A stretch of 64,000 bases of DNA, taken from positions 376,227-440,226 of the forward strand of contig NW_003314348.1 in NCBI RefSeq assembly GCF_000143415.4, given 5' to 3'. Made by a program: the position numbers and the translations under genes. The first letter of the stretch is position 1. Every line of letters begins with the position of its first letter. This DNA is from Selaginella moellendorffii (taxonomy: Eukaryota; Plantae; Lycopodiophyta). Below the pieces are notes generated by a model that had not been told where the DNA came from, made no database searches, and saw only the letters and a list, made by a program, of their open reading frames with translations. This document shows positions 1,686 to 64,000 of the stretch, piece after piece.

Positions 1686-1700
1686 CTCTCCCCCCCTTGG
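1686..1700 (-). other. Polypurine tract (PPT)
   Basis: CTCTCCCCCCCTTGG on + is a purine run on - immediately abutting the 3' LTR. Confidence 0.9.
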
Positions 1701-6620: not shown

Positions 6621-6632
6621 CCTCTGATACCA
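6621..6632 (-). other. Primer binding site, tRNA-iMet
   Basis: CCTCTGATACCA is the reverse complement of TGGTATCAGAGG, 2 nt from the 5' LTR. Confidence 0.9.
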
Positions 6633-6634
6633 AA

Positions 6635-16368: not shown

Positions 16369-16468
16369 NNNNNNNNNNNNNNNNNNNNNNNNNNNNNNNN
16401 NNNNNNNNNNNNNNNNNNNNNNNNNNNNNNNNNNNNNNNNNNNNNNNNNNNNNNNNNNNNNNNNNNNN
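16369..16468. other. Assembly gap
   Basis: Run of 100 N. Confidence 1.
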
Positions 16469-18609: not shown

Positions 18610-21600
18610 GGTGGCATGGATGAGTGTCTCGCTTGGCTAGCCAATGTGAAGAAGTTCTTGGATGCTAGGGGAACTCCAGATGCAAAGGCTTTAGTAGCTA
18701 TTCCAATGGTTTTGCATGATGCGGGTCTTCGATGGTGGAATTGGCTTGAGGAGTCTCATGTTGCAGATAAAAAACCACCAATGTTTACCATGGATGAGTT
18801 TGAGGTTGCTTTTCATTTATGTTTTGCCCCTTATTACGACGTGGAGAATGCTTGTATAGAATTTCAACATTTCCAGCAAGGGAAAATGATGCTCGGGGAC
18901 TATATTGAGAAGCTTACTCACTTGATTAATCATGTTCCAACGAAGGATCCAGATCAAAACAAGTCCTACTTCATTGATGGCCTACATAGTGAGAGCATGC
19001 AGCAACACTTGCGTCATTCTCAGCCTACAAAGAGTTTGGAAGAGCTCTTTGATGCGGCTCGTCGACTTGACAATGACAAGCACAAGTCTCGCAAGCGTTC
19101 ACAGAGTCCTTCTATCGAGAATCGTCGTGATGATTTCTGTGGACACAAGGATGGGAACAAGCATCACAAGTTGAAGTCAGCGGTGACTACTTCGAATGCA
19201 AAGGGGTCCAAGAAGCAGAAGTTCTTTGTGAAGAATTATAGACAGGGTTGTCATCATTGCGGTGAACGTGAACACTACAAGGCTGATTGTCCGCAATTAA
19301 AGAACAAGCAGCAGGATAAGAAGAATGGCCAATATTCTTCTCACAGTAAGTCAGATACTAAAAAGTTGCACACTTTATAGCGTGAGGATGACGAGAACGA
19401 CTATTCCGGTCGGAGGAAGAGACTTTCAATTGTTATTCATCAACTCAACTGTGTGTGGAACAAGATGGAGCTCAAGGATACATGTGCATTAGCTTTAATG
19501 CTAGAGGGCATGTTCCATGGCGATCCAATGCAGATTTTACTGGATAGTAGGGGCGATGACAACTTTGTTTCGGCAAAGTTTGTTGCGGAGCATGGCCTGG
19601 TCACATGCGGAGTTCTTCCATACACAGTGGAAGGTGTAGCTACCTCTGCTCAGCATTTCGATGCTTGTGTCAAGGGGCTGGAAGTGTTGGTTGGCAAAAC
19701 CACACTTGTGGAGACTTTTTATCTTGCAGATATCCATCGTGTGGATTTCATTCTTGGGATGCCATGGTTGGTGAAGGTGGATCCAGAGATAAAGTGGAGT
19801 ATTAATTGTATCTCGCTAAAGTATGGTGGTGTTCAAGATGTGTGGTTTGGCAAGGGCGTTCAACCACAAGTTGTTATGCTCTCTACTACATCTTTGAAGT
19901 TGTCATAATGGAAAAGCACTTTCGAGTTACTTGCTGTTTGTTCGTGACTTAGGGGACCAAGGCACGTGTGGGGGAGAAGTAGCAGTACAGGAAGTACTTG
20001 ATGAGTTTTCTGATGTTTTCCCATCTGAACTTCCCATGGGTTGCCTCCGTTACGAGGTGTGGAACATGGGATTACATTGGAGCTGGGGATACGGCCAATT
20101 TACTGGCATCCATTTTAGTTAAGTTATGCGGAGGAGCAAGAAGTTCAATGACAAGTCAAGGAGTTACTTGAGTTTGGATTTATTTAGCCAAGTAAGTCTC
20201 CATTTGGTGCTCCAGTCCTGCTTGTGAAGAAGAAGGATGGTTCAATGTAAATGTGTATTGACTATTACGCTTTGAACAAAAAGACAGTGAAGGATAAGAT
20301 GCCGATGCCACGTGTGGATGATATCCTAGACAAGCTTGGTGAAGCACGAGTGTTTACCAAGATTGATCTAAGGAGTGGATATCATTAGATTGCAATGAAT
20401 GATGCATCTATCTCCAAGATGGCATTCAACACAAGCTTCGGACATTTTGAGTTTACAGTTATGCCGTTTGGTTTGACGAATGCACCAGCCACATTTACTC
20501 GGTTGATGACGGAGGTATTTGGGCATTATCTTCATAAGTTTGTGAAGATTTTCTTGGACGATATTCTTGTTTTTAGCAAGAATATGGAGGAGCATAAGGT
20601 GCATTTGCACAAAGTTCTTTTGTTACTCCAAGATAACAAACTTTATGCGAAGAAGAGCAAATGTGAATTTGCAAAGTCGAAAGTGGAATATTTAGGCCAT
20701 ATTGTGACATCTAAGGGTGTCAAGACAGATCCACAGAAGGTGGTTGTGATGGAAAATTGGCCTACACCAACTACAATGGCCGAGTTATGCAATTTTCTTG
20801 GTATGGCTAGTTACTACCAACGTTTCCAACATAAGTTTGCAGAGGTGGTTATTCCTTTGACGCAGTTGTTACGGAAGAATGTGCCATTCGAGTAGAAGAA
20901 GCCACAAAAAGAGAGTTTTGTGGCGCTAAAGCGATTGTTGAGCGAGACTCCAACCAATCGCATTGCTAATTCATTGAAACCTTACGAGGTGACATGCGAT
21001 GTGAGTGGTTATGCATTGGGAGGAGTTCTCATGCAAGAGGGACAGCCTATTGCATATGAGAGTCGAACTTTGAATTCTGCGAAGTAACGCTATTCCACAT
21101 ATGAGCAAGAGTTATTCTCTATTGTTCATGCTTTGCGGACATGGCGGCACTATCTTTATGGTGTAGTGTTCATGGTGTTGATAGATCACAAACCACTTGT
21201 GTATCTTTTCACACAGAAGGAGTTGAACACTAGGCAAACTTGTTGGATGGTCAAACTCATGGAGTTTGGGGAGTTTCCTATTGAGCATCGTCCAGGAAAA
21301 TCAAATGTGGTGGCAAATGCTTTATCTCGTATTCATTATATGACAACATTACAAACACGATTTTGTCATCATTTGAGTAAGGTGATCAGTGAGTTTGGGC
21401 AGTTGGTTGGGCATGCTCAAGCTTAGGATGTTGAGATGGCCTCTTTGCGAGACCAGATGGAAGCCCCTTTCTCATTGGTGGATGAGATTCTTTACTACAA
21501 TGGCCGTGTATATTTGCCAAGGGTGGATGCGTTACTTACTCACGTTTTATTCCACTATCATGATCGTCTAGAAGCCGGTCATTTTGGGGGGAAGAAGACG

Positions 21601-26049: not shown

Positions 26050-28029
26050 CTATGCGGTCATGCCATACAGGTTGGAAAGAAGTACATAAGCCGAGGAGTC
26101 TTTGGAGTTGAGGCCCAGAACCGATTTGGCGGCTTTGGCACCGTGTTGGAGGCTGCTATGGCTTCTACACGCTCCAAGGAAGCACCTCCATTCGAATGGA
26201 TCCGGCACAAAAGGCATGCTTGCGAGGAGATCTTGCGCGTCGCTGAGCCGGGCAGCTCGGCCCAGAAGATCAACCACGCAGCAGTAGTGCTGCTTGGTGG
26301 GTTCCAGTCCGTAATCCACGATCATGGACGCGAAGCACGACTTGCCGAGGTAGAGCTTCCCGGCGTGATTGCATGCGAGCAGTGCCAGGACGAAGCAAGT
26401 CTCGTCCGGCGAATCCACCGTCTTCATCGTGTAGAAGGCGTCAAAGGCATTTGCGGAGCATCCGGTCTGCGTGTAGAGTGTCATCATTGCCCCCCACGAT
26501 GCGACATTCTGTGTCGGCATCCTGTCAAAGATCTTCTTGGCGTGGCTGATGTTTCCTGCCTGGGAGCACACCGACAGCATCGCCGTGTAGGAGAAAGTGT
26601 CGTGCTCCGGCATGGCGTGGAACATTCTCACAGCCTCCTCCAGATGCCCGTTCTGGGCATATGCATTGAGCATAGCGTTTCTACATACGAGATTCTGGTC
26701 TGGCATTTCGTCAAAGATCTTCTTTGCGTGCTCAAGATGGCTGTTTTGCGTGTACGCGGCGAGCATCGCAGTAGAGACTATGAGATTTTTTTCTGGTATG
26801 GAGTGAAAGATAGCTTCCGCAAGATGAAGCTGCCCGCTTTGGGCATATGTGGAGAGCATCGCGGTCGAGGCTACAACATCCCTTTCCGGCATTTCGTTGA
26901 ACATCCTCTCGGCATCTGAATATTTTCCCGCTTCGGCATATGCGGTCAGCAATGCCGTTGACGAGACTAAGTCCCGCTGAGGCATGCTGAAGAAGATTCT
27001 CTTAGCATCGACGAGATGCCCGTTCATGGTATATGCGGCAAGCATTGCAGTTGTGGTGGCCAGGTTGCAGAAAGGCATTCTCTGATAAACTAGCCAGGCC
27101 TTGGCAACATGACCCGTTTGGGCGTAAAGAGAGAGAATTGCCGTCGAAGACACCATGTCGTGGAATGGCATTCTCCCGAGAAAGATTCTTTCGGCACCTT
27201 CCAGATGCCCATTTACGGCAAATGCTGTGACCATAGCTGTTGTTGAGACGAGATCTTGCTCCGGCATGGAATCAAACAATCGCTTTGCGGACTCAAGCTT
27301 TCCAGCGTCTGCGTACGCGTTGAGTATCTCAGTAGAAGATACCACATTGTGTTCTGGCATGCTTTTGAAGACCTCAATGGCTCTCACAAGATACCCTGAT
27401 TGGGTATATGCCGTTAGCAAGGTGTTCCACGTCATAAGATTCCTTTGCTCCATGCTCTCAAAGAGATTCCTGGAATCAAAAACATTTCCCTCTTGTGCGT
27501 AGGCACCAAGCATCGCGGTTGACGAGACAACGTCGTGCTCTGGCATGGAATCAAACACGAGTTTTGCTGCAAAAACATGCCCTGTTTGGGCAAATGCCGC
27601 AACCAGTGAAGTCCACGAAATCGTGTCCCGTGCTGGCATTTCCTCGAACAGCGCTTGCGCGTCTGTGAGAAATCCCTGTTGGGCGAATGCAACGATGATC
27701 TGGGTCCAAGAGAACAGATTCCTTGCGGGCATTCGATCGAAGATGCCCTTGGCGCTGTCCAGTTGCCGGTTTTGAGTGTACGCCGTGAGCATGAAATCCC
27801 AGGAGAAGGAGTCCCTGGCATCGTCGTCGAGGGTGTTAAACACCTCCTCTGCCTGTGGGAGATTTCCGTGCTTGCCATGGAGCTTGAGGAGCCTGTTGGA
27901 GACGAATGCGTCCCAGCGGAGAATGTGGGCGGGGATTCGAGTGTGGATGTGTTTGGCGAGCGTGGAAGTGCCGCACGAATCGATGAGCTCAATGCATTGC
28001 CTTCTATCCAGGACATTGGCAATGGCCAT
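26050..28029 (-). CDS. PLS-class pentatricopeptide repeat protein with E domain (organellar RNA-editing factor type), intronless
   Basis: Many ~31-aa repeats (A..IF..MP.RD.VS.TAML.AYA..G). C-terminal HYCCVVDLLGRA...W..FLGACR.H...SAYVLLSNLY; no DYW. Confidence 0.95.
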   Translation of the reverse strand: MAIANVLDRRQCIELIDSCGTSTLAKHIHTRIPAHILRWDAFVSNRLLKLHGKHGNLPQAEEVFNTLDDDARDSFSWDFMLTAYTQNRQLDSAKGIFDRMPARNLFSWTQIIVAFAQQGFLTDAQALFEEMPARDTISWTSLVAAFAQTGHVFAAKLVFDSMPEHDVVSSTAMLGAYAQEGNVFDSRNLFESMEQRNLMTWNTLLTAYTQSGYLVRAIEVFKSMPEHNVVSSTEILNAYADAGKLESAKRLFDSMPEQDLVSTTAMVTAFAVNGHLEGAERIFLGRMPFHDMVSSTAILSLYAQTGHVAKAWLVYQRMPFCNLATTTAMLAAYTMNGHLVDAKRIFFSMPQRDLVSSTALLTAYAEAGKYSDAERMFNEMPERDVVASTAMLSTYAQSGQLHLAEAIFHSIPEKNLIVSTAMLAAYTQNSHLEHAKKIFDEMPDQNLVCRNAMLNAYAQNGHLEEAVRMFHAMPEHDTFSYTAMLSVCSQAGNISHAKKIFDRMPTQNVASWGAMMTLYTQTGCSANAFDAFYTMKTVDSPDETCFVLALLACNHAGKLYLGKSCFASMIVDYGLEPTKQHYCCVVDLLGRAARLSDAQDLLASMPFVPDPFEWRCFLGACRSHSSLQHGAKAAKSVLGLNSKDSSAYVLLSNLYGMTA

Positions 28030-28192
28030 GCCATCTAAAGCTCCAAGATTTGCCCTGGAAGATTATCATACGCCACAATCGCATTGTTTAGGCAAGCTCC
28101 GGAAGATCTTGCGAGCCGCGATGATCGGTCTGGGCTCACATTGAGCGCCTCAATCGCGTCTCCCCACATTCCCGCCCATCCTGCCTTGCTAA

Positions 28193-46019: not shown

Positions 46020-46769
46020 CAAGGCCCAAGGAATGGCTAGTATATTTTAGTATATGTTTGTTACTCATGCTTTGATTGGTGCTTCATCTTTGTGAACATT
46101 GATTATTAGTTATTTTTTTGAGAACCTCATGTATAAATTAAGTTCCTTGACTTAGAAGTGTATTATAAAACAGTAATAGATATAAATAGTAATGGGATTA
46201 TGGCAATTAATATGTGATTACACTAGGGAGCATTATGTATTTATACATGGGTTGTGGTAATTAATCTAAAAACTGTAGCTTATATATAAAAGCAAGATTA
46301 AAACCAATTTAATAGCTATCAAAATCCTATACTTGATCATCCCTTCTTCTCAGAAGAATGGAAAACAGTCAAAGTTCTCTAATGAACAAGCCAAGATTTG
46401 AAGGAACATTAAGTAGTAATGGATCTATAGATGGTGTTAATTGTTCTTAATTCCTTTATATAAAGTGTTTAAACTACTATATATCCATAATTTTTGGAGG
46501 ATCAGCCTATTGGATGTCATATCAAACTTTATAAACTTGCAACATTTAATATAGTTTTGTGAGACACAAAATCCCTAGGCCCCAAAGTGGAGCCGAAAGG
46601 CTGCCACGTGGTAGTGGCTGACGTGAAAATCAAACGAGCATAACACATTTGGATTAAAAGTTCTGACTTGAAAGGTCGAGAGCGGAAGTGAAACTCTCAA
46701 CGACGTGCTCAAGGAACAAGCACGGAGCAAGTAATAAGTGAGTCTCTAAAAAAAAAGGGACACAAGAGG

Positions 46770-47200
46770 ACCCGAGATGGAGTCTAAGATGGAGTCCGAG
46801 AAAGACTCGAGTTAGAGTCTGAGATGGACCCAAGTTGGAGTCCGAGATGGAGTCCGATATGGACCGAGATGGAGTCCGAGATGGATCCGAGATGGACCCC
46901 AGTTGGAGTCCAAGATGGACCTAAGTTGGAGTCCGAGATGGAGTCCGAGATGGAGTCCGATATGGACCGAGATGGAGTCCGAGATGGACTTGAGATGGAG
47001 TCCAAGATGGACCCGAGATGGAGTCCGAGATGGAGTCTGAGAAGGACCCGAGATGGAGTCCGAAGTCGAGACTGAGACCAAGACTGAGACCGAGACCGGG
47101 ACCGAGACCGAGACCGAGACTGAGACCGAGACCGAGACCGAGGCCGAGCCCAAGCCCGAGTCCAAGTTCGAGTCCAAGCCCGAGTCCGAGTTCGAGTCTG
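46770..47200. repeat. Hexamer/12-mer minisatellite inside family B LTR (GAGATG-GAGTCC, GAGACC, GAGTCC blocks)
   Basis: Directly visible tandem units. Confidence 0.95.
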
Positions 47201-47289
47201 AGAGGATGAAAGCCCAAAGTGTTCGTCTCCCAGACCCTGGGGGGTTTGGTGAGCTCTAAAAGTATAGTAATGGGGAGGACTATAGTGAA

Positions 47290-47385
47290 GCCAGTTTGGC
47301 CAGGAAAGGCCAGTTTGGCCAGGAAAGGCGAGTTTGGCCAGGAAAGGCTAGTTTGGCCAGGAAAGGCTAGTTTGGCCCAGGAAGG
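47290..47385. repeat. 19-bp tandem repeat x5 (GCCAGTTTGGCCAGGAAAG)
   Basis: Five copies here versus two in the homolog at ~63140-63175. Confidence 0.9.
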
Positions 47386-48865
47386 CTGTACCCAGTGTTG
47401 GGTGATGAGCTGCCCACTGGGAAGTCCAAGACTAGAGTGAACACAAACAAACAAGTGGGGTAGCTTGGTGAAGTGTTCAAGAGCCAGCTCTAGTTCCCCT
47501 AAGAGATCAACTGGCCGATGCTCTCAATCCAAGTGTGGGTGGCATTACCTACTTGGATACCAGGTGTGGCTCAATAGAACCTCGCTCTAAGCCCATGGCT
47601 AGAACACCCAAAGGTGGAAGGCATGGAGAGTATCTAGGAGGCCTGCGTAGGGCCATGGTGTTCCAAAATGTTGTCCCAAAGTCTCAGACTGTGGAAAGGA
47701 AGAGGAGTAGGCCTCTGGTGTAGTGACCAAGGACATAGTCACACGGCAAGGAAGTTCTAGAGGGCCATGGGACTTAGTGGTCAGGCCTATGGGCCTTGAT
47801 TCAGTGGCAGTGTTGGCAAACACGGCCATGGACAGAAAGGGACTTGGTAAGGACCGGAAAGGAGGTATTAGGGAAGGCTATCCCCATGTCTGCGGGCATC
47901 CTAAGGATGCTAAGGAGTGGATCTGAGATGACCACTCATGGATGGAAGACCCAATCTTGGAGAGACAGGGTTGCAATGCAGGTGGCTTTGGACCACCGAT
48001 GTAACCAAGGTAAATGGGCATGGCCTAGCGTAACGGGCTGGTATGTTGGTGGTACCTTGGGTCCCGGTCATGGGATCGGACACGTGGAGCACTTGGACCA
48101 AATGCAAAGGTTGAGTGGCAGGGATGCCATTATCGGGGCTAGCAAGCCCAAGTCCGAAATAGCACTTATGGAGGTTGTGAGTGAGACTCTTCCAAGTGGT
48201 CAAAGGTGTGGTTAAGTGACTAAAGTAGAAAGGAAAAATTAGTCGCTTAAAGCTCTATTTCGTTAAAGTGGGATTTATTCAGTAAAATGGGACTAGGTAC
48301 AAATTTTCAAGTATTTGAAAATGACGTGAAATTATATGTTTTTTGTCCAGGGGCTAGACATATCTGGGGCATGGTGACTAGCGCGGTGACTTTGTGTCCA
48401 GACTGAGTCCATCTGGTTGTATAAAAAATCTCATTGTCAAGGTGAACAAGCCGAATCTGAAGCTAAAGAAGAGCGATGGCATGCGTGCACACACTATTTG
48501 TTTGTTCATTGAGCGTGTGGTGAGCTTTCCAAGATGAACGTCATTCCTATTAGCCAGACATATAACTTAATGGTGAGAACATTTAGATATTATTCAATGT
48601 TATCTTTTTCTAACGAATCTAATTGTGAAGGTGTAGCAAGAGGCATTGCTAGTCTGGAGAAGTCATTTAACTCATTTGACCCTTAGTGTATTTTCATGAA
48701 ACTAAATAACATTCATATTATTAAGGAATTTCTCTAGTACCTTTTTTTTACGACATAGAGGCTTGCATTTCTTTCAAAGGTGATTTAGTAAAAGGCCTGA
48801 GGGCACATGCCATTCTATTTCTCAGACCGGTATTAAGATATACTAGTGCAAAGGGCCACATGCCA

Positions 48866-51800
48866 TCACGCCTCCTCTGATTCAGATTCGGATTGTTCAC
48901 CTTGAAATAAAATACATTAGAAACTTAGTAAAGGAATATTAATGAATCTCACCTTGAACCCGGGTTATGAATGCTCTTGCTGCATCTCTTGCATGGTCTG
49001 GCAAGGTGATGGTGGCACTCTGCTTCCGCATCCAACCATGCACAACATTATCCACCGATATGCTCATGCTGGGATCCCTTGGATTCAGCACCCATCTCTT
49101 TTCTAGGCAAGCTCGTTAGATGGTCAAACTCATAGAGTTTAGAGGGTTTCCTATTGAGTATTGTTTGGGAAAATTGAATGTGGTGGCAGATACTTTATCT
49201 CATGTTTATCATATGACGACATTACAAACATAGTTTTGTCGTCATTTGATCAAGGTGGTCAATGAGTTTGAGCAATTGGTTGCACGTGCTCTGAATCCGG
49301 CTTCTTGTTCCTCGGCCCACAATAGTGATCCTCAACATCGTTATCTGTCACTGCATTTCCAGAGGACATTGTTCCGCTACTATCTGGTGCTCTGGGTTCT
49401 GGCCAAAAGGACTCTTCCAATTCTTCATATACAACCGGCCCATTTTGGATAGCAGATATAATCTTCTCCCAGTATTCGAGCAAAGGCTTGCACCTCTTAA
49501 AATAGGATTCTCCACCAAACACCAACCCCCTCTTCCAGAAGGCAATATGCTGTCTAATCCCGGCCACTATACTTTCCTGGTCTTTGAGTCCATCCGGGTG
49601 CATCGGCCGTGGGGAACCCTGAGGAATCATAGGTTCCCCAATTATGGGATCTCTCTTGAAGAGTTCAATGCCATCCACTGGCAGCCACACTGTGTCCCAT
49701 TCTCTCATCTTGTACCTCATCACTGGAGCACCGTCACGCATGCTGAAATGAAACTGAAGAGGCTTGGAGTGGCCAATCAGCATTTCGGATCCGTCCCTGA
49801 TGTAGCCTCTTACAAACCCCTTAATGTCTGGAACCTCTGTCACAAGTGCAGCTTCAACAGTGCCTTTGATGCAATTTTGGAATTCATCGTAGAGTTGTGG
49901 GAGGGTGAGGACATTGGATCGCCGGAGGGACTCTGCCAGGTGACTGAACATGGCATCGACGTCTTCATGAGTGTGCCCAACCATGAGAAAGCCAAGTGTA
50001 ACCGTTTCAAATATGCCTTTGGCAACAAGCATCGCCAAGTACGCGAAGACGTACATGTTTTTGTTCTCACTGCCAGCATTGTCTGTTTGGAGCAGAAGAT
50101 GGGGTGGAAGGCCACATCGGCCGCAAGAACTTCCTTGAGATTCTGCTTTGTTTGGATGAGGCTGTGCATTCACCGGGCGACCAGCCTCGTCGGAATGACA
50201 TGAGGCCTCACGTGATAACCCTACAATCTGACGGCCAACATATTCACTAGGATGGCATGGGGCCCCACGCGATACTGCAAGCCTTTGCTCCTCCTCCAGC
50301 TGAACCCTGTATGGGGTTCGATCGACAAGGGCCTTATGCAAGGGTTGGCCGTTCAGCTCAGTCTGCGCACTTTGCAGAGACCTTAAGTGTTTTGCTAAGG
50401 ACGCAATCATCATGTTTGCACCCCCGCCACCCCATAGAGGCACAAAGAAGTTCCCATAGTTCTGGGCACCATGCCCATGAGCGATTATGCCAAACAGAGA
50501 CACAGGCAGCTGCATGGATGAAGAGATTGCCTTGGGGGCAGGATTGAGTCGAGGTAAGCACGTCTTTTTCTGATCCATTTTGTCGTGGATGATGCAGAGG
50601 TAAGAGTCAGGTCTCTCCATGGAGAGAATCCTGTTATGATAATATGCAGTCCTGCAGCTTCTCTGCTCGATGTTGTGGTCGAGCCGCCTTCTAACCAACG
50701 TCTCTCGCTCTTGAGCGCTGCAAGAATTCTTCGACAAAGCCATTTTGATAGCAGTGCACTCGTCACACTTTGAAAAGCTGGAGTACTTTCCTATACTCAC
50801 ATCCCTGAACCTGTTGCTCCACAATCTACTAAATCTAGATTGGCTCAGCTTCCTATAGCCATTACTCTGGAGTTCCCGATTCACATCTTCCAATATGGCC
50901 CCCTTGGTATACATGGAAGGGAGAACTCGTTGGGTGTCTCGTGTTCCATCTTCCAAGAGGCGGGTTTTATGTGGTTGCTGCTCGCTACATGTCTCGACAA
51001 ACCTCTTGAAGATTGCCTCTCCATATACAACATGACCCCTGGTTTTGTGCGTACCGTCGTTCCCATGGACTGCCTGTTGAACCCTTTGTTCCTCGAACTC
51101 AGTTTTGATTCTGTAGAATGTGGTTCGAGGGACTTCATAAATGATTCTCCATGCCTTCATGCAGACCAAACCCCTCTGGAAGACCATGCCCCCCACCTGA
51201 TGTTCTGAAGCATCAACAGATGACCGTAATGCCTCATACACAAAATTGCGAGCTGCCTTCCAGGACAATGTCTTGTATCTTGCTCTCTCCTCTTCAATAG
51301 CATCCCAATCAGCATGTTGACAGCACCTCCTCTTGCAACAAGCAACTGTCGAGACCATTCGAACCTCCATCGCCATTTTCTGCCTTTTCGGTTCGTTGCT
51401 CAGATCCCTTTGGCTGCGCTGTAGGAAGGTGTACTTTCTTTTCCCATGAAGAGATGTTCTGTCATCAGTTGTAGTGGTGTTTGATTGTGAATCCTTCACA
51501 TTCTCAAACACTAAATGCCTCAATTTCCACCGCACAATGCTTCCAATAGTCAGACTGTTTTCTTCTATGTCAACAACCTCTAAAATCGCAACTCCAATAT
51601 CATCCCAGCCCAATTCTTGATTAGCAACCGCATCTCTTGGATCGACAACTGTGGCTAAGCCCTCAGCTACCACCTCCCCCTCGGGGTTGTTTAGAAACAC
51701 CTTTGCCTGAATCCATGTAGCACGGTTCTTAAGATCCACGGAGGGAACATGCGTCGCACTTGCGTTGTCCCCAACATCTACTTTCTTCTGAAGATTTTTC

Positions 51801-52015
51801 AAGGCAACAACAACATTTACCCCGACGACTATCTCTCCTCGTTCAATAGCAACCACATTCCCATCGAAGACAGTCTCTACTGATACAGCAGCATTGCCTT
51901 CCCCAAGCCTTTGACAGTGTATAACAAAGTTCCGATCCATAGACACAAGGGTCCCTTTTGCAACTCTCTTCCCACCATTCAAAATGTAAACCTTTTCCCC
52001 AACCCTGAAGGCCAT
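48866..52015 (-). CDS. Sola-like (DUF7869-type) DDE transposase, C-terminus disrupted by a gypsy-derived filler
   Basis: 918-aa ORF with CCKRRCC, VCMKAWRIIY, HGN, FSKCDEC, IIHDKMDQ, LQTDNAGSENKN, FLMVGHTHEDVDAMFS. The native tail resumes at ~49100 (RWVLNPRDP...RVQ), intron 48901-48952, last exon GEQSESESEEA* (48866-48900). Confidence 0.85.
49103..49291 (+). mobile_element. ~190-bp Ty3/gypsy pol fragment (RNase H end/linker)
   Basis: Colinear with 21230-21418 (GATGGTCAAACTCAT...AATGTGGTGGCA...ACATTACAAACA...). Confidence 0.9.
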
Positions 52016-52380
52016 TCTGAAAGTGCAGAAAAGAAGTTAAGACCATACAAAAAATGATTGGAGAATGGCCTAAATCATAACATACCAAACAACCTAACTA
52101 GCATGAGGCCACATGCCATTATTCAAACATGCTATTGACACCCACATGAAATTTCGCATTCACAAAATTGGCATGAGGCCTCATGCCATCTTGATATACA
52201 CACAGCTGCAGGCAAGTAAAAACATACATGACAATACGCTAGCCATGAAATTGCAAGGGCCCAAGATGGCATGTGGCCTCATGCCATTTCTAAATGTGGT
52301 CCTAAACCATTCCATGGTGAACATACCAGGAAGCACAAGTGCCGAATATCAAGAGGAAGCGGTAGCCACACCAAAGACAG

Positions 52381-52452
52381 TGCCGCTCGCAACACCGCAA
52401 CTACTCGTAGCGCCGCTCGCAACACCGCAACTGCTCGTAGCGCTGCTCGCAC
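52381..52452. repeat. 30-bp tandem repeat (~2.4 copies) in the transposase leader
   Basis: CCGCTCGCAACACCGCAACTRCTCGTAGCG repeated. Confidence 0.85.
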
Positions 52453-53300
52453 AAACTGCCACTCGCATAAACTACCGCTCGCAATGGCGCTCGCAATGCC
52501 GCAACCGCTCATAGACGCATAAACCACAGCTCACAACGCCGCTTACACAAGCAGCGCTCACTGCGCTCAGCGGAACCAAGAACACGGCGCACAAAAATGA
52601 TAGACCTAGGAATGAGTTCGAGAATTCAAAAATAACACACGCTTGAACATCACATCAAATCCTCTGACAAACCAGATCTTATGATTCCTCTGACAAATTT
52701 CAAACTGAGTAGCTTCTAGACTTTGCTGTCGGAGGTTGAACTTTGTCACATCATGTCCTTGTCTCGATCCAGCTGTGCCATGTCAGTGATTCGAACTTTG
52801 CCATGCCATGTCAGCGATCCGCGCCAAGATTATTCGCCGTGTAAAGGAATAATTATGCTGTGTGTGTACGTCCATTTATGGCAATATAAGGCCACACGCC
52901 ATTCAAAGAATAATGCTAGTCGAGCATTTTTTGGTGCATTTTTGGGTTCAAAATTGCATGAGCCCACACACTATAAAGTTTACCTGTACCAAAAATAGAA
53001 ACAGCTTTATTTACTTGGGAATTTAAGTGGTTGAGGCGTACAAACACATGCCCTACTTACATTCATTTGGTTGCTTAAAATTCAAAAATATTATAAACCT
53101 TTCTTTTTGCATTTTCAATGTTTTCAATTATGGTTTTTGATTTTCGCAGGACCAGCCTAGTAATTTATTTGCATCCCGTCATGTTTATAGCTAGCTTTCG
53201 TTTGTCCCCTTCGCTGGCCTGAGATACATCTGCTCAGAATCTGCGTCTTACAGCATTTGCCCAGAAAGGGCATCTTTCTTCACGCAGCATTTGCCACATG

Positions 53301-53325
53301 TTTAGGGTTAGGGTTTAGGGTTTAG
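53301..53325. repeat. Short telomere-like / telo-box tract
   Basis: TTTAGGGTTAGGGTTTAGGGTTTAG. Confidence 0.8.
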
Positions 53326-54452
53326 CAATTCAGTAGCTTGATAAACATGCAAATACAGAACTTGATGCAAAATCCTTTGATATGTCACAATGCCCCTAGG
53401 ACCATAAACACATTTCAATAGAGAGGGTCCTTTCATTTCATAACTCCTTACGTAGATCTTGGTGAAACCAGAGTTAGTGAAGTTGGTTTCTTGTGATCTC
53501 GCATCTGATCATTGTAAGGCTCGTGTGGTCTCATGTGGTGTTCGATCGAGATGCTTCTTTGCAGGGTCATCAAGAAGGACATTGTATACCATTCTATAAA
53601 ATCTAGTTGCGATCTAACGGTTGGATCTCCAGGAAACTCAAAACAATCTCGCGCGTGTCAGAATATTCTAGGAATATACTCCTATGTGCTCCTGAAAATG
53701 GCATGCGACCCCATGCCATTCAAGAGATAACGCCAGATGACGCCAAGCATTTTTTGGTGCATTTTTTGGGATCAAAATTGCATGAGCCCACACGCTTGAA
53801 CGTCACATCAAATCCTCTGACAATTTATTTAGCTGAACATCTGGCATTTTTGGAAATATAAGATGCTTTGGAATATCCAATCATGCATGGTATAAATATA
53901 GCGAGGGTATTAAATGATATCCCAATCATGATCTTTCTTTTGGATTTCGCGTGCATGCAGTCCGAGGAATGATGACGTTGTGGATTTCTTTTGGATTTCA
54001 CGCATGCGCGCGCCGATCCAGAAATTAATGGTGGCGCCCAAGTCCGAGGAATGATGACGTGGCGGGATTACCAACCGTCGTGACATTTCGCGCATGTGAG
54101 GTTAGGTTTTGGATTTTGCTTCGTACTCGCGCTCGCATCGTGCTCCCACTCGCGCTCCCACTACTCTACAGGTTTCTCGTGTGCAGCGGCGTCCACTTGC
54201 GCTTGCATCACACTCGCGCTCGCATCGCGCTCGTGTGCATCGGCGTCCACTTCAAGACACACCCAGTTTGTAACTTCGCCGCCAACTCCGCCGCCCACTC
54301 CGCCACCCACACGCAGCCCACTTGGCGTCCCGGGAGATTTCAGCGCCACTCTCCAACTGTAAGTGGCAGAGTAGCCTTGCTGCTACGATCCGCTGCACAC
54401 ACAGTGCACATTCGCCAGCGAGTCCGGTTGTCACGCCTCCATTCGGCTTCAA

Positions 54453-57400
54453 ATGGTAAGTCTTTTAGGCCAAGTAGAAAATGGCATGAGGCCACATGCC
54501 ATTCAGTAGCAACATTGGCATGCACCGATTGGGCTCTCGAGTGCAGTCCGGTTACAGATGGCGTGAAGCATCACGCCATCTTAGGATGCAGCCTCAAGAC
54601 ATCTGATGCAGTGGTGAATGGCGTGTGGCCTCACGTTATTTCCAGCTACTAGCTTTTCATCTGTCAGCTCTAATTGTTGTGCATTTCTGAACAGGCGAGG
54701 AATTGCGTTCTTCTTCCAGCCACTGTCAATGTGGATGCAGAGAAGGGGGAGGAGCTCACCAGTTGGACTTTCGGGATGGAAGGCGAGGATCTGAGGCTGT
54801 ACAACACAGATGGTGGGAGAAAAGAATGCATGGGGATCCTCATCCAAGTGACAGACACTCCATGCAGTTCCATGCAAGAATATGGACTGGCACTTGTGGT
54901 AGAGACAGCGTCTGCCTTCAAGATCCACCTTGCACATCCTAGCGGCTTCCCGGAGGGGGGCAGTGGCTATGAGGAATTCCTAGAGGGAGCTAGGGAGAGG
55001 TTGTCTAGGAGGCCCACAATTTCAAAGACGCTGCGGGTCTATGAAGATCACATGGAATCCACGGACCTCACCTACGGCGATGTTCAAAAACTATATTCCA
55101 ACATTGAGCCGTTGAGAGTGACTCCAGTTCGCGAAGCAAAGGGGAAGGGGGTCGATCTGGAAACTACCTCGAAGCAGAAAAGGGTGGTCAAGCTCAAGCC
55201 GACGTCCGACTCTCCTGCTCCAAAAAAGAAGCTACTCAGTGATGCCATTGCCTCGGGTTCGAACACTACACCCACCAAAAAGAAGAGCCGCAAAGAGCAG
55301 AAAGAGCAAGAAGAGGCAGCAAAAATCGTCGCAAATAATAGTACTTGTTACTATTCCAACAATGTATATACAATCGACGTGAGCCGTATCGACATCCAAA
55401 GCAAATACAACCACAGGCTAGTATCTGATGAGTGGGTGGAGAAACTGAAGCAGAAGATGCTGGCAAGTCCAGTAACACCTGACATTGCAGACGTGATCCC
55501 CTACTACCGAACAATGAAGGGCGAGACGAGGTTTCCAGACTTGATCAATAGGAAGGTGTTGGACGATCAGAACATCCGGTTCTATGCCGTCTCCGGGCAG
55601 CATTCTAGCTTGGCGATGCAAGAGATAGTTGTGGATATTATGGTGGGCGAGGAGGTGAAGAAAGTCTTCAAGACAAGAGTTGTCCGCCTGATAAAAGGCA
55701 ACTCGCCCCTCCGATCTATCATATACATCTCCCACGCGCAGAATGTCAAGCAAGAAACGTGCTACAAATCGGGTCTGCACGAGACATTGGCACGAACACG
55801 GAAGCTCTGGGTTCAACTGAAGAAGCCACAAAAACCAGGACAAGGACGTGCACTAGCAACTAGCGCCTGGCAGGTAAGCCTCGTTGCATGTGGCATAGCA
55901 TGTGGCCTCACGCCATTTCCATTGCAGGAATTCTCGAGTCTTCTCTCGAAAACACTGGGGGTCAATGACACACTCAGCATCCATAACATTCTACTCGCGA
56001 CAAAAGTTGTTTTTGACAAATGGGTAGATGTGCTGAGGAGGTACCATGACGGGGAGTTGCCAAACTCAATGGGTGTGGAGGACGGCCGGAAGCCCAATGA
56101 TTTGAAGCTCAACGCCTTGCGTTTCTCGCGGTCTCTAGACGACGACGACCTTCTGACAGTGGCTAATGCTCTTCTACGTGGTGAGGTTGTCTTCAACAAG
56201 ACCAAAATGACTCCCGGCCATATTGTGACATACGAGGACTTGTGCACGACTCTGAGAGCTCGTGCGCTATTGAAGGATTGGATCTTCGAGCAAGTGGCCG
56301 TGGCGAGGGTGAGCATCGACACCACGCAAGAGATGATGGAAGCGCTGGAGTTGTCAAATGAAGACATCGACGAGTACGTGAAGGGGGCCCCCAAGTTCAT
56401 CGATCTGCTGCGGGATGCCACGAAAAGTAAAGCTGAGAAGTTGGATCAGTATCCAAATTTCATTAAGATTGATGTCGACCGCCGGCTTCAGAAACAGCTC
56501 GACCCCGCAGCAGAGGCCTATCGAGAACCTTACCGGGTATACTTGAATTCGGATGAGGATCAAAGGTGGAGGAGCATCGTTTCCCGCGGAGATGAGCAGG
56601 TCAAGAACATCTTTTGTGTGATGGACTTCACAAACGAGGAGATCACTCATGCAGACGAAGTCAGCTCCATCATTGACTTAATGGTGGGACTTGCGGAGGT
56701 GGAATCTTCAGTCCACTATATGATCTACGACTCCGAATCCTATCACAAGTTCTGGAAGGCCTTGAACGAGGTGAAGGCTCGGTTGAAAGGCAAGGAGATG
56801 CGGGAGATCCATGGGATAATGGCTAAGAAGAAGATACCGACGAATGTCCGCATCTTCACACTCGCCCTTGTTATTGGTCCTGCAGCAGAGTGGGACTGGA
56901 GTGACTTCTCAGCTTCGTTCGACAAGGCCAATCGAATTGATCTGAGGGAGGTCAATTTACCCGTGCCTGAGGAACTGAAGACGGCTATGGAGCTTTCGAA
57001 TCCAAAGAAAGCTCCAGGTGCAGCATGGGAAATGCTCAGCTGGGTCTTCAACGCAATAGCGGGTGGGTCATCTGCTTCCGACTCCAAGGGCAAATGCGTT
57101 GTCGAGTACAACTGCGGCGGACTATTCTTTCGAGCCGCACTACTCAAGGGTGTCCCTTGTGTTGCGGTGACAAACTCCATTGAAGAGGTGACTTCAATGG
57201 AGCATATAATTACAGTTGCCAAAGAAAAACAGTATCTTCTCTGTGAACCTGGTGAGTACACACTTTAAGTTTAAATGTTATCTCACAAGCTCTGTATGCA
57301 GGAGCGTGGCCACCCCCAGATGCTGAAACGGCGTTAACAGCTACTGTTGAAGATACCCATGTTGGGCCGAGCTCACAACTTGCACAAGGTAAGGTCACAT

Positions 57401-60075
57401 GAGGCCTCACGCCATTTTGATTATAGATCGTTGTGAATATTCAGACACGAGGACTGAAAAGCGCACTGGTGGCGCATCGAAGAAGGACAAACAGACAAGC
57501 AATAGGAAAAAAGGAGGTACAAATTATATTTGCAATGGCGTGTGGTCTCATGCCATTCCTTGCAGAAGAAACTTCTTCAAAGGCAAAACAGGCAAGCACC
57601 AGCCAAGCTCAAACTGACAGTGGTCATAAAAAGTGAAAGCACGTTGGACAGTCGTCGAGATCAGAGGCGTTTGATTCGAAAAGGAAGAAGGGCAACGAAA
57701 AGATGATAGGTAATGCCTCGCGGTTATGGCGTGTGTGCTCATGCCATTCATTGCAGATCAAGGGCTGAGTGAAAGCAGGCAGTCACCACCTCATGACTCA
57801 GATTCCTATGGCGGACTCCCCTTCCCCAATCTCAATGGAGAGGTACAATGGATGAGGGAAGCTTTTCAAGGCAGGGCCACGTTTTTCTCATCTCGTCGTC
57901 TTCGAAGGGTGCAAGAACGTGCAGAAACCATGTTAAGACAGTCGGGTGAGGATACGGTCCTAGGTCACGCACTAAAACAAGCTATGGATGTCTTGTATTT
58001 TGAGATGGAGACTCGGCCAGATGATTTTCCCAAGATGGTCCTGGAAGAACAAGCCATCCAGCCTGAGCAGCCTATGGAAGAAATGCAGGAGGGGGATGAG
58101 GAGCCAGAGAAAGATAATGAGCAAGAAGAGCAGAAGGACGAAGAGGAGGACAAAGAAGAGGAGGACAAAGAAGAGGAGGACGAAGAGGACTTGGATGGTC
58201 CTCACAATGGTGACGATCACAATAACGACGACGACGATGATGACGACGATGGCCAGCCTGAGGTGGCCAAAGAGCGGCGGAGGAAGGTCATACAAGACAA
58301 ACCATCAGGTAAATAATAATACATCCATTCCTAACCTTTTACCATTTCTAACATTGTCCATGTAGGTCGCAGAGCAAATGGTAAGTAGAGATTATTCAGT
58401 TGAATTTACAAACTCTAGCCTTTAGTGTCGAGGAAGGATAGTGCCAAGCAAGGGTCGAAACGTATGTCCAATCCTTCAGAATCAGCAGTGCGCTCAAGTG
58501 ATATCGGTCCTAGTTCCTCAATAGCAGTTGATGGTAAATACAGTATAGTCGATTCAATGTGCTAATGAGTTTGTTTTTAGTAGCACGGGAGGATACCATC
58601 TCAATCGAAGGGAGATATTTGGACATGCATATGGATCCGCCAGTGGACTCTACTTGGCTGCAAGAGTCATCAGAGCTGGTGGAGGCTACTATCCATATCA
58701 ACGCCAAGCAAGCTGACCACGCTCCACTTGATGCTGCCCATACCACTGAGTCAATCTTGTCCACGTATCCAACTGACGGTGACCAGGCGCCATTAGACCC
58801 ACATGAGGCCGCCCCAGCCGCCGAGCCGGTCGTATCCTCATTTCCAATAGACTCAACGTGTGCCCAATCGTCTGACTACGCGCCGTTGGAACCTCCCTAC
58901 ACCGCCCCTGCTGCTTGTTCGGTCATGTCCACTTTGCCAACGGAGGCACCAGCTGAAATGGCGTGTGATCACACGCCATCAAAACCACCCCATGCCACTG
59001 TTGAGCCAGTTGTACCAGAGTCTACAGCTGAAATGGCATGTGCCCACACGCCATCGGATGCGATTGACCCCACATTGCAGAGGAGAGTATTTCCGCCCTT
59101 CACGTTTCCTCGACCAAAACCCTCTCAACGACCATCGAGAGCACCATTCGCTAATATTGTAGATGGTAAAATTGACTTGTACCATTTTTTATGCTGACGC
59201 ATTTTATTTCAGAGTCACGGCGAAGGTACTGTATCGTTTTTGATCTGAACGGTGTCCTTTTCTCCCATGAGCGTGGCTCGTCCTCGAATGTCATTGCACC
59301 CTCCAAAGCCTGCGGTCGCAAGTTGGTCAAAAGAGACAGATTCACATTAATCACACGGGAGAAACTGCGGGATCTAATAATGACCATGCGACACTTAAAA
59401 CAGAGGGCCGGGTTCAATTTGCAATTGGGAGTTTGGACATCCATGATGCGCCACAATGCATTAACGTTGCTACAGATGATGCACGATCAGACGCGAGTAA
59501 TATTACCATTTGACTTTCTCCTAACGCAGGAGGATTGCTTGACTATGGTCCATGTGAGGGGTAGCAAGCCCATCTTCGTCAAGCCAGAGGCTGTAGTGAT
59601 GAACCGGACTGCTAGCTCAAGTGAAATCCTCATCATCGATGACTCGCCGATTAAAACTGCAGCGAACACGCACACATATGCAGTGCACCCCATCTCTTGC
59701 AGTATGGAAACTAGGGAGAAGAAACCGTATGTTCTGGGGGACCTTGCAAAACGGCTTGGAGCGATGGTGATAGAGAACCGGCCAGTCCAGGAGGTGGCTG
59801 CAGAAATCAACCAAATGGCAGATGGAACGGTATATCAGAAGCCATTTGATCGGACAAACACCAGTCATCATTTATGGCATGTATATTGTCTAGCCAAGCA
59901 CTATCCGCATCTCCATAATCTGCTCAACCGGATGGGTTCTTCGACCACTGAACATGAGCGTGGACGTATTAGAGAAGAGATGGCATTACTATTGGGTTTA
60001 AATCCTGATAGTGTGGAGAGTGATGAAATTCCAAGATTATTGTATAGGCGTTGGAGGCAAAAAATAACAGTCTGA
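54453..60075 (+). CDS. Transposon accessory protein: ParB/DGQHR-like + degenerate N4/N6 methyltransferase-like + acidic linker + FCP1/SCP-like HAD phosphatase; multi-exon, one in-frame TGA (57634-57636)
   Basis: Long exon ORF 54694-57251 with in-frame 54-bp intron 55874-55927. Downstream exons link through ~45-56-bp phase-1 GT-AG introns (57252-57301, 57389-57444, 57517-57565, 57710-57756, ...) to the last exon 59213-60075. Motifs NHR..W.EKL..K, FYAVSGQHSSLA, GKCVVEYNCGG..AALLKG, IVFDLNGVL, GVWTS, LIIDDSPIK. The 5' micro-exons are uncertain. Confidence 0.72.
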
Positions 60076-60570
60076 GATGGCATGTATTTATTTAAAAATG
60101 TAACTTATTATGGCATGGTGTTCCATGCAATTGTATTAATATTAAAAGACAATTCTTTGAGAGGATTTGCATTATACTAGAAGTGTTACAGCATGTTATT
60201 GGAAGTCTACGAAGTTGTTTTATTAATAATGGGAAAGTAAAGATTGAATGGGGACTTGGGCTCCACCTAGACTCGGAGCAACTGAGCCAATATTAAAAGG
60301 ATGGAAAGAAATTGGACGACGATGACAAGGAGAAGAGAGAGGTGAAGCAGTGGCAGGGGGAGGAGAAGTGATTGAGTAGACATTTCCTTGTTTAAAATAA
60401 AATGGCATGTGCCTCAATGCAGTTGAATTTTGTTATATTTATATACTATATAAAGGTTTGGAAACCTTATTTTACAAGTGGGATAATGACAATTCCCACT
60501 TTAACGAAATAGAGCTTCTTACAAATTTCTTCCATTTAATAAAGAGCCCCTTAAACAAACATACCATAAA

Positions 60571-62267: not shown

Positions 62268-64000
62268 TGTAAGCAACTAAATTTTCCATTCTACTTTAGT
62301 CACTTAACCACACCTCTGACCACTTGGAGGAGTCTCATTCACAACCTCCATAAGTCCAATCCAGGACTTGGGACTTGCTAGCCCCGAGAATGGCATCCAT
62401 GCCACTCAACATTTGCACTTGGTCCAAGTGCTCCACGTGTCCGATCCTATGACCGACACTCAAAGGTACCACCGACATGCCCGCCCGTTATGCTAAGGCC
62501 ATGCCCAATCACCTTTGCCACACTGGTAGTCCATTACCACTTGCATCACAGTCTTGGCTCTCCAAGACTAGGCAAACCATCCGTGAGTGGTCATCTAAGA
62601 TCCACTCCTTAGCACCCTTAGGATGCCCACCGACAAGGGGAATAGCCTTCCCCAATATCCCTCTGTCAGTCCCCACTAAGTCCCTTTCTGCCCCTGGCCG
62701 TGTTTGCCAACACTGCCACTGGATCGAGACCCACAAGCCCGACCACTAAGTCCCACAGTCCTCTGGGACTTCCTCACCACACGACTGTGTCCTTGGTCAC
62801 TACCCCAGAGGACTGCTCCTCTTCCTTTACACAGTCTAGGCCTTTGGGACAACATTTCGGAACACCATGGCCTTACGCGAGCCATCTGGGTACTCTCCCC
62901 GCCTTTCGCCTTTAGGTGCTCTAGCCATGGGCTTAGAGCGAGGTTCCGTTGAGCCACGCCTGGTATCCAAGTAGGTAGTGCCACCCACACTTGGACTGGG
63001 AGCATCGGCCAGTCGATCTCCCGGGGGAACTAGAGCCGGCTCTTGAACACTTCACCAAGCTACCCCGCTTGTCGGTCCGTATTCACTCTAGTCTTGGACT
63101 TCCCAGTGGTCAGTTCATCACCCAACACTGGGTCTGGCCTTCCTGGGCCAAACTGGCCTTTCCTGGCCAAATTGGCTCCACTGCAGTCCTCCCCCTACTA
63201 TACTTTTGGAGCTCACCAAACCCCCCAGGGTCTGGGAGACGAACGCTTTGGGCTTTCACCCTCTCAGACTTGGACTCGGACTCGGACTCGGACTCGAACT
63301 CGGACTCAGACTCGGACTCGGACTCGGTCTCGGGCTCAGCCTCGGTCTCGGTCTCGGTCCCAATCTCGGTCTCGGTCTCGGTCTCGGTCTCGACTTCGGA
63401 CTCCATCTCGGGTCCATCTCGGACTCCATCTCAGACTCCATCTTGGACTCCATCTCGGGTCCATCTCGGACTCCATCTCGGGTCCATCTCGGACTCCATT
63501 TCGAGTCCATCTCGAACTCCATCTCGGGTCCATCTCGGACTCCATCTCGGACTCCATTTCGGGTCCATCTCGGGTCCACCTCGGACTCCAACTCGGGTCC
63601 ATCTCAGACTCCACTTCGGACTCCAACTCGAGTCCATCTCGGACTCCACTTCGGACTCCAACTCGGGTCCATCTCGGACTCCACTTCGGACTCCAACTTA
63701 GGTCCATCTCGGACTCCACTTCGGACTCCAACTCGGGTCCATCTCAGACTCCACTTCGGACTCCAACTCGAGTCCATCTCGGACACTTCCACGTGTCATG
63801 TGTTGGTCCTTTTTGGGTCCCTTTTTGGAGCCTCGCTTTTTGCTCGCTTCGTGCTCATTCCTCGAGCACTTCTTTGGGAGTTCCACTCCCACTCTTGACT
63901 TTTCAAGTCGGAGCTTTTGGTCCAAACGTGTTACGCTCGTTTGGCTTTCGCTTCGGCCACTACCACATGGCACCCTTCCGGCTCCACTTTGGGGCCTAGG
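62268..64000. repeat. Family B LTR, inverted relative to 46558-48249; runs off the window end
   Basis: Begins TGTAAGCAACTAA; reverse-complement colinear with 46575-48249, including the hexamer arrays. Confidence 0.9.

What the first reader, a model, noticed from the sequence alone, without database searches (positions are those of the whole stretch)
56520..57230. Degenerate beta-class N4C/N6A DNA methyltransferase fold next to the ParB-like domain
GKCVVEYNCGGLFFRAALLKGVPCVAV (from 57089) aligns by eye with motif I GDxVLDPFxGSGTTxxAAxxxGRxxIG, preceded by a K.P...ll.w helix. YRVYLNSD...DEQVKNIFCVMDF (56530-56629) sits where GD....dSVDLIxTDPPY is expected, giving motif IV before motif I (beta permutation). 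Both the DPPY/SPPY and FxGxG motifs are altered, so it is probably a pseudo-enzyme. Established: ParB-methyltransferase fusions are common in phages and bacterial mobile elements. Inference: a prokaryote-derived module was repurposed as a DNA or methyl-base reader.
Basis: inference. Interest (0 to 1): 0.75.

Follow-up and report, generated by a model that had tools for sequence, protein, structure and literature searches.

The report
Plant transposon's dead bacterial DNA methylase
A young, many-copy jumping gene of a land plant carries a second gene whose protein is predicted to join a bacterial ParB-type DNA-binding module to a DNA-methyltransferase-shaped domain that lacks the catalytic motif, and this protein likely binds a short palindrome repeated 22 times in the element to control its own copies rather than to write methyl marks.

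Summary
The motifs are at the stated coordinates. Alone they are not detectable (0.1 bits on a phage beta-MTase HMM; shuffles up to 7.4), but homologues carry the case. A colinear liverwort protein hits PF01555 (E 6e-4, below cut-off) and M.RsrI. A Selaginella homologue's Atlas model matches PF01555 clusters (TM 0.68-0.71). A 7-sequence plant profile matches phage beta-MTases over motifs X-I-II (P 4e-5). My own model of the window domain was too poor to confirm the fold. All 7 plant domains keep only the D of DPPY, so a pseudo-enzyme is likely, and the loss is family-wide, not decay of this copy. The domain is not a host gene. It lies in an 11-exon accessory gene (ParB-like, helical, MTase-like, NIF phosphatase) of a 12,268-bp multi-copy TIR transposon (4-bp TSD, DUF7869 transposase) with 22 copies of a 22-bp palindrome. 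The residues lost are those that hold the target base, so 'methyl-base reader' is doubtful; a cofactor-binding or scaffold module of a self-regulator is likelier. The ParB-MTase design is published for Ectocarpus Sola1-1_Ec32, and this scan noted it before on other plant DNA, including inactive versions with a phosphatase.

The parts
48250..60517 (.). TIR DNA transposon, 12,268 bp, young and multi-copy
   Evidence: TIRs and TSD; 2.4-3.3 kb contigs about 99% alike in run X3 and up to 2.9 kb in X12, runs of only 3 Mb of contigs, both ending at 60517
48250..48273 (+). left terminal inverted repeat (24 of 24 match); TSD CTTA at 48246-48249
60494..60517 (-). right terminal inverted repeat; TSD CTTA at 60518-60521
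49291..52015 (-). DUF7869 transposase ORF with DDD-like acidic motifs (aa 482, 649, 686 of the ORF); 3' end replaced in this copy at 49111-49290
   Evidence: Pfam E 1.4e-42; motifs; replaced piece
54453..60075 (+). predicted 11-exon accessory gene, 1643 codons, 10 GT-AG introns, one in-frame TGA at 57634 (codon 912, behind the MTase-like domain)
   Evidence: gene model by coordinates; intron 2 junction matches RefSeq model P0020 and ORF ends of homologues; same domain order in P0038; no transcript evidence
55334..55873 (+). ParB/Srx-like domain with GQHS in place of GxxR
   Evidence: alignment A3; homologue P0012 TM 0.51-0.59 to ParB_N clusters
55874..55927 (+). 54-nt in-frame intron holding one palindrome
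   Evidence: junction conserved in homologues
55928..56500 (+). conserved helical domain, no fold match listed; candidate DNA-binding domain (inference from ParB layout)
   Evidence: pLDDT 57-92 per 10-residue block; best-scoring stretch to P0001, P0005, P0011, P0016
56501..57251 (+). beta-class amino-MTase-like domain, catalytic motif lost (the finding)
56618..56635 (+). motif IV remnant VMDFTN (only D kept)
57098..57121 (+). motif I remnant VVEYNCGG
59213..60075 (+). last exon: NIF/FCP1-type HAD phosphatase-like domain (DLNGV, IIDDSP)
   Evidence: Pfam NIF E 4.4e-6, above cut-off; fused in P0038
48476..60423 (.). 22 copies of a 22-bp palindrome ATGGCRTGWGSCWCAYGCCAT-type; 11 in other non-coding DNA, 7 in accessory-gene introns, 2 in accessory exons, 2 in the transposase ORF
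   Evidence: 22 inside, 0 outside at up to 4 mismatches; 20 at up to 3 mismatches against a shuffle mean of 0.03

Best explanation
The stretch is the likely catalytically dead, beta-class DNA-methyltransferase-derived domain of a transposon accessory protein that would bind the element's own 22-bp palindromes through its ParB-like and helical domains and so regulate the element. Shown: the element's ends, copy abundance, palindrome array, domain order and family-wide loss of PPY. Predicted: the Rossmann-type beta-MTase fold (from homologues) and the spliced 1643-codon product. Inferred: the protein recognises the palindromes, which crowd the introns and the non-coding DNA between the two divergent genes. 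The dead MTase domain would keep only a cofactor (SAM/SAH) pocket or act as an interaction scaffold, and with the C-terminal NIF-type phosphatase domain it would help keep or switch the element on against host 5mC silencing, as VANC proteins do for VANDAL elements.
For: Fold: P0038 hits PF01555 (E 5.8e-4) and M.RsrI motifs X-I (E 0.18) and is colinear with the window ORF (three HSPs, best E 1e-13). P0001 residues 230-451 align with TM 0.68-0.71 to PF01555 clusters in 8 of 10 Atlas rows, several of them ParB fusions. Profile-profile P 4.3e-5 with controls. AF2 strands fall at YRVY, IFCVMD, CVVE in beta order. Dead: D kept in 7 of 7, PP[YFW] in 0 of 7; motif I one residue short in 4 of 4 that reach it. 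The dominant family form differs from this copy at 8 of 881 sites, none in either motif. Long retention: Selaginella, Riccia and Calypogeia homologues at 20-28% identity. Cis sites: 22 palindromes, none outside the element; 7 of 9 within the gene lie in introns that make up 12% of it (P 1e-5). Host pressure: 25 of 32 listed transitions against the dominant form are at CG/CHG (33% expected, P 2e-7). Precedent: PMC12477816, bioRxiv 2025.02.11.637652 (passages), PMC10398659 (abstract).
Against: My AF2 model of the window domain has pLDDT 22-46; Foldseek found nothing and VIA-align gave only generic alpha/beta folds (best Z 6.3, no MTase in the top 50), so the fold of this very protein is inferred through homologues. 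The motif III/IV half has no profile match. The ParB-like profile does not beat shuffles against 7 phage ParB domains (15.6 against 16.8) and lacks the GxxR arginine in 13 of 13. The motif II acidic residue is Thr in the window, which weakens cofactor binding. No binding, expression or methylation data. The palindromes could be transposase sites. This copy has a TGA at 57634 and a replaced transposase end. I could not show that the unnamed homologues lie in transposons.
Confidence: 0.55

Rival explanations
1. The protein is a transposition co-factor: it loads on the palindromes like ParB on parS and organises or bridges the 12-kb element for the transposase; the dead MTase is a structural spacer.
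For: ParB-like fold; palindromes run from 226 bp inside the left end to about 100 bp inside the right end; long elements need help to pair ends (inference).
Against: Sites crowd introns and the region between the two genes rather than the ends; the CTP-binding arginine is absent in 13 of 13; the phosphatase domain is unexplained.
Confidence: 0.15
2. One reading: the dead MTase domain itself reads DNA or a methylated base (4mC, 6mA or 5mC).
For: Fold kept for a long time without catalysis. Inactive MTase domains in DIRS1 elements were proposed to bind nucleic acid (PMC4738411, passage).
Against: The base-holding PPY is what is lost (role recalled); the four residues after the Asp differ in all 7 domains; the domain is acidic; the segment between motifs IV and X is not conserved.
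Confidence: 0.1
3. It is an active methyltransferase with a non-standard active site that marks the element's DNA or another substrate.
For: Asp of motif IV and D/E-x-x-x-G-G of motif I are conserved. The Ectocarpus protein is predicted to make 4mC or 6mA (PMC12477816, passage). Unchecked AI notes report intact relatives in other plants.
Against: No conserved substitute motif after the Asp in 7 domains; motif II acid missing in the window; the plant enzymes shown to make 4mC keep TSPPY (bioRxiv 2021.02.12.428880, passage).
Confidence: 0.1
4. The domain is a vestige carried along without a role of its own, or is not MTase-derived at all in this lineage.
For: Low sequence conservation of the N-terminal half; no fold match for my model; window domain scores as noise alone.
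Against: Full-length domain and motif I kept in a lycophyte and a liverwort at 20-28% identity; 864-codon frame open in a methylated, mutating element.
Confidence: 0.1

Closest known systems
Sola1-1_Ec32 accessory gene of Ectocarpus (PMC12477816; passages; supplement rows; figure and sequence not seen)
   Same: Large TIR transposon with 4-bp TSD; accessory gene on the strand opposite the transposase; ParB-like plus N4C/N6A MTase domain; proposed to bind and modify its own element.
   Different: There the MTase is presented as able to methylate; here PPY is lost family-wide. A NIF phosphatase domain is added. Land plant host; 12.3 kb against 21.5 kb; 24-bp perfect against 282-bp imperfect TIR; 'palindrom' has 0 hits in that main text.
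Plavaka PAG2/PAG3 of the red alga Bostrychia (bioRxiv 10.1101/2025.02.11.637652; passages; supplements not seen)
   Same: ParB-like accessory protein beside arrays of inverted repeats, proposed to bind its own element; PF01555 domain on the same element.
   Different: ParB is fused to a 2OG oxygenase and the methylase to SET, in separate genes; EnSpm/Plavaka transposase.
Prokaryotic and phage beta-class N4C/N6A MTases (PF01555; M.RsrI; ParB_N-PF01555 fusions)
   Same: Predicted fold and motif order; ParB-like domain upstream.
   Different: No (D/S)PPY, shortened motif I, about 190-aa helical domain between ParB and MTase, spliceosomal introns.
VANDAL/VANC anti-silencing system (PMC10398659, abstract; PMC5735166, search listing only)
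   Same: TE-encoded accessory protein with cognate repeated motifs in non-coding parts of the element (functional analogy).
   Different: Different protein and transposase families; VANC binding and effect are shown, here inferred.
MpDN4MT1a/b of Marchantia and N4CMT of bdelloids (bioRxiv 2021.02.12.428880, PMC8885841; passages)
   Same: Beta-class amino-MTases of bacterial origin in eukaryotes, one in a land plant.
   Different: Active, keep SPPY, host genes; 'ParB' has 0 hits in both texts. Relationship to this family not tested.
Inactive MTase domains of DIRS1 retrotransposons (PMC4738411; passage)
   Same: A transposon that keeps a catalytically dead amino-MTase domain.
   Different: PCIF1-derived, other MTase group, retroelement polyprotein.

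Membership tests
beta-class N4C/N6A DNA MTases (PF01555) | class I MTase fold in permuted order (motif IV before X-I-II) | tested here: inconclusive
   Met for homologue P0001 (TM 0.68-0.71) and by strand order; the window's own model has pLDDT 22-46 and gave no MTase match
beta-class N4C/N6A DNA MTases (PF01555) | homology over motifs X-I-II at the C-terminal end of the domain | tested here: met
   hhalign P 4.3e-5, controls at most 20.4 against 39.7; P0038 to PF01555 and M.RsrI
beta-class N4C/N6A DNA MTases (PF01555) | catalytic motif IV (D/S/N)PP(Y/F/W) | tested here: not met
   0 of 7 plant domains; only D kept
beta-class N4C/N6A DNA MTases (PF01555) | motif I DPFxGxG and acidic motif II | tested here: not met
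   EYNCGG, one residue short; Thr at the acidic position; 36 of 53 phage domains have E/D there, 15 not parsed
beta-class N4C/N6A DNA MTases (PF01555) | Pfam gathering score 26.7 | tested here: not met
   window no hit; P0038 20.3 bits
beta-class N4C/N6A DNA MTases (PF01555) | methyl transfer to DNA | not testable with these tools
   needs an assay
ParB/Srx N-terminal domain | ParB_N fold | tested here: inconclusive
   P0012 TM 0.51-0.59 to ParB_N clusters, one row meets the Atlas bar; profile match not above shuffles
ParB/Srx N-terminal domain | GxxR nucleotide-binding motif | tested here: not met
   G-Q/A-H-S/T in 13 of 13
ParB/Srx N-terminal domain | binding to a cognate palindrome | not testable with these tools
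   array present; binding untested
Sola DNA transposons | TIRs and 4-bp TSD | tested here: met
   24-bp TIR, CTTA TSD; 4-bp TSD as Sola feature from PMC3627910, PMC3845634 passages
Sola DNA transposons | AWWT-type target preference | tested here: inconclusive
   the one insertion seen is CTTA, not AWWT; Sola1-1_Ec32 TSD is biased to end in A
Sola DNA transposons | transposase groups with reference Sola transposases | not tested
   DUF7869 hit only; the DUF7869-Sola link is recalled and from AI notes; defining paper not held

The most novel reading that the evidence does not exclude
A clade of land-plant transposons turned a phage-type ParB-methyltransferase into a non-catalytic regulator: the dead MTase domain senses the host's SAM/SAH state and the fused phosphatase acts on RNA polymerase II or chromatin at the palindromes, so the element switches itself on when host methylation weakens. 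This would be a second, independently evolved anti-silencing system beside VANC, built from prokaryotic parts.
Probability: 0.15. Interest if true: 0.85.

Novelty: new variant of a known kind. Interest (0 to 1): 0.5.

Why it matters
[quoted passage not shown] The algal ParB-MTase accessory genes were proposed to write a mark. A family that lost catalysis but kept the fold, the ParB-like domain and a palindrome array across lycophytes and liverworts shows that writing the mark is dispensable, and points to binding as the core function. A young, many-copy family with a defined 22-bp site makes this directly testable.

Tried and rejected
No whole genome held, so no copy count or dN/dS. Word-based homologue searches: nothing new. 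Metagenome locus scan: 103 pattern matches, none confirmed. Single-sequence AF2: pLDDT 34. AF2 with 14 sequences: MTase part under 50; Foldseek pdb and viral no match; VIA-align generic alpha/beta only, MTases not listed. PDB sequence searches with the window domain, A1 and A3: no relevant hit. PHROGs: nothing relevant. Of 19 phmmer hits, 3 were dropped as repeat artefacts (P0002, P0006, P0014). Near-duplicates (P0005, P0016, P0020-22, P0028, P0030, P0031) were left out of the 7-domain count. The 53 phage beta domains were chosen from 107 ORFs for having motif I and an upstream PP[YFW], so their motif counts hold by construction; 22 of 53 formed the compact profile. Homodimer prediction of ParB-like plus helical region: no verdict. 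No RNA holder listed; run X20 is only guessed to be RNA and showed no listed splice joint. First gene model had an off-by-one acceptor, corrected. Rejected: decay of this one copy as the cause of motif loss; a domesticated host gene. Searches that found no paper on a land-plant or inactive version. Iyer 2011, Bao 2009, the journal versions of the two preprints and bioRxiv supplements were not seen and may bear on novelty.

Full report
1. Observation. The finding lies in an 864-codon frame, 54674-57268. By itself the domain is invisible: no MTase hit in Pfam, PDB sequences or PHROGs, and 0.1 bits on an HMM of 22 phage beta-MTase domains where shuffles reach 7.4. The by-eye match therefore needed homologues.

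2. Homologues. phmmer against 1.84 billion representatives gave 19 hits; 3 were repeat artefacts. The named ones are from Selaginella moellendorffii, Riccia and Calypogeia; the rest are unnamed records. Cluster look-ups added P0026 and the full-length Riccia protein P0038. P0038 is colinear with the window ORF (HSPs at the ParB-like, helical and motif I regions; best E 1e-13). It hits PF01555 at residues 727-788 (E 5.8e-4, 20.3 bits, cut-off 26.7) and NIF, and aligns with motifs X-I of M.RsrI (E 0.18). The Atlas model of P0001 (pLDDT 0.60) matches PF01555-carrying clusters in 8 of 10 rows with TM 0.68-0.71 over about 200 residues, several being ParB fusions. The window links to P0001 and P0026 in the motif I block (z 6.3 and 8.6; leave-one-out HMM 23.5 bits against a best shuffle of 3.8). 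A 7-sequence plant profile matches the phage beta profile over 59 columns (probability 69%, P 4.3e-5; reversed 13.0, best of 30 shuffles 20.4 against 39.7). Against this: the motif III/IV halves do not match (P 0.11), my AF2 model of the domain has pLDDT 22-46, and fold searches with it found no MTase. I put the beta-MTase ancestry of the domain at about 0.88.

3. Catalysis. At motif IV the seven domains read DFTN, DLRR, DSAN, DATT, DFAR, DLTH, DANS: D in 7 of 7, PP[YFW] in 0 of 7. Motif I reads EYNCGG, EYGCGG, DINTGG, DFFSGG in the 4 that reach it, one residue shorter than DPFxGSG. The motif II acid is Thr in the window. The dominant form of the family differs from this copy at 8 of 881 sites, none in these motifs, so the loss is not decay of one copy. 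From recalled enzymology, PPY holds and stacks the flipped base, while the Asp of motif IV and the acid and glycines of motif I face SAM. The pattern thus fits loss of base binding with possible retention of a cofactor pocket, and fits a methyl-base reader poorly. The domain is also acidic (net -8). Probability of no DNA amino-MTase activity, given the fold: about 0.8.

4. Context. The gene is part of a 12,268-bp element, 48250-60517, with 24-bp perfect TIRs and a CTTA duplication, inserted 2 bp inside the end of an LTR-like repeat whose other copy shows the empty site. Runs with only 3 Mb of contigs hold long pieces about 99% alike, ending at 60517, as expected of a young high-copy repeat. 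A DUF7869 transposase (E 1.4e-42) runs on the other strand, head to head; its 3' end is replaced in this copy. Ten GT-AG introns of 45-239 nt give a 1643-codon model: ParB-like, helical, MTase-like, low-complexity, NIF phosphatase-like, with one TGA at 57634 behind the MTase-like domain; whether other copies share the stop was not seen. Intron 2 is supported by a RefSeq model and by where homologous ORFs end; there is no transcript evidence. A 22-bp palindrome occurs 22 times inside the element and never outside in 64 kb; 7 of the 9 copies within the gene lie in introns (P 1e-5). Of 32 listed transitions against the dominant form, 25 are at CG or CHG (P 2e-7; these are the rows shown, a part of all differences), which indicates host 5mC on this copy. 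The host is a land plant with short introns, likely a lycophyte (inference; one AI note on this genome says clubmoss).

5. The ParB-like domain. Its conserved motif is F-x-x-S/D-G-Q-H-S, without the GxxR arginine in 13 of 13. Homologue P0012 matches ParB_N clusters at TM 0.51-0.59 and fungal DUF3723 by features; a profile match to 7 phage ParB domains was not above shuffles. ParB-like is likely but weakly shown, and CTP use is doubtful.

6. Mechanism. Most likely the protein binds the palindromes and regulates its own element, with the dead MTase as a cofactor-binding or scaffold module and the phosphatase-like domain as effector (0.55). Binding and effect are inferred. Rivals: transposition co-factor (0.15), base reader (0.1), non-standard active enzyme (0.1), vestige or other fold (0.1).

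7. What is known. Sola1-1_Ec32 of Ectocarpus has the same layout with a ParB-MTase gene opposite the transposase (PMC12477816; passages; supplement rows; the lead came from AI notes, and I read it myself). Red-algal Plavaka elements carry ParB-oxygenase and methylase-SET genes with inverted-repeat arrays (bioRxiv 2025.02.11.637652; passages). VANC gives the functional analogy (PMC10398659; abstract). Dead MTases in DIRS1 are a precedent for pseudo-enzymes in TEs (PMC4738411; passage). Active plant and rotifer 4mC enzymes keep SPPY (passages). Searches found no paper on a land-plant or catalytically dead version; Iyer 2011, Bao 2009 and bioRxiv supplements were not seen. This scan has noted such elements on other plant DNA at least ten times, four of them with a likely inactive MTase and three of these also with a phosphatase domain; one note with 22 copies of a 22-bp palindrome may be this same family. 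Those notes are unchecked and are not counted as support.

8. Verdict. A real feature; beta-MTase-derived and likely dead; part of a transposon accessory gene; it fails membership of PF01555 as an enzyme but is built like one. New variant of a known kind; interest 0.5.

Noticed in passing
window 46560-48249 and 62270-64000: Two inverted copies of an LTR-like repeat with 12-bp tandem arrays; the transposon sits 2 bp inside the end of the left copy, and the right copy shows the empty site.
   Followed up: partly
window 49111-49290: About 180 bp that differ from the family form (172 letters in run X3) and look like a retroelement fragment by eye; they replace the transposase 3' end.
   Followed up: partly
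window 53300-53325: Plant telomere-type GGGTTTA repeats inside the element, between the two divergent genes.
   Followed up: no
window 54695-55159: N-terminal 155-aa domain of the accessory protein without a family hit; P0003, P0004, P0010 and P0017 also have long N-terminal domains.
   Followed up: no
P0012 residues 100-290: The ParB-like domain's nearest Atlas clusters by features are fungal DUF3723 and cnidarian hypothetical proteins, by structure also a mollusc cluster, hinting at a wide eukaryotic family.
   Followed up: no
P0001 / P0020-P0022 (Selaginella moellendorffii): Annotated as 379-451-aa genes with the helical and MTase-like domains but no ParB-like core; truncated models or a domesticated derivative.
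   Followed up: no
window 59242-59256: HAD motif I reads DLNGV (DxN instead of DxD), so phosphatase activity is uncertain.
   Followed up: no
window 549-7500 and 16160-18620: Three copies of another LTR-like repeat, two direct and one inverted, next to Gypsy-like gag/pol remnants at 18586-20892.
   Followed up: no
window 26053-28062 (-): PPR-like gene among compact host genes.
   Followed up: no
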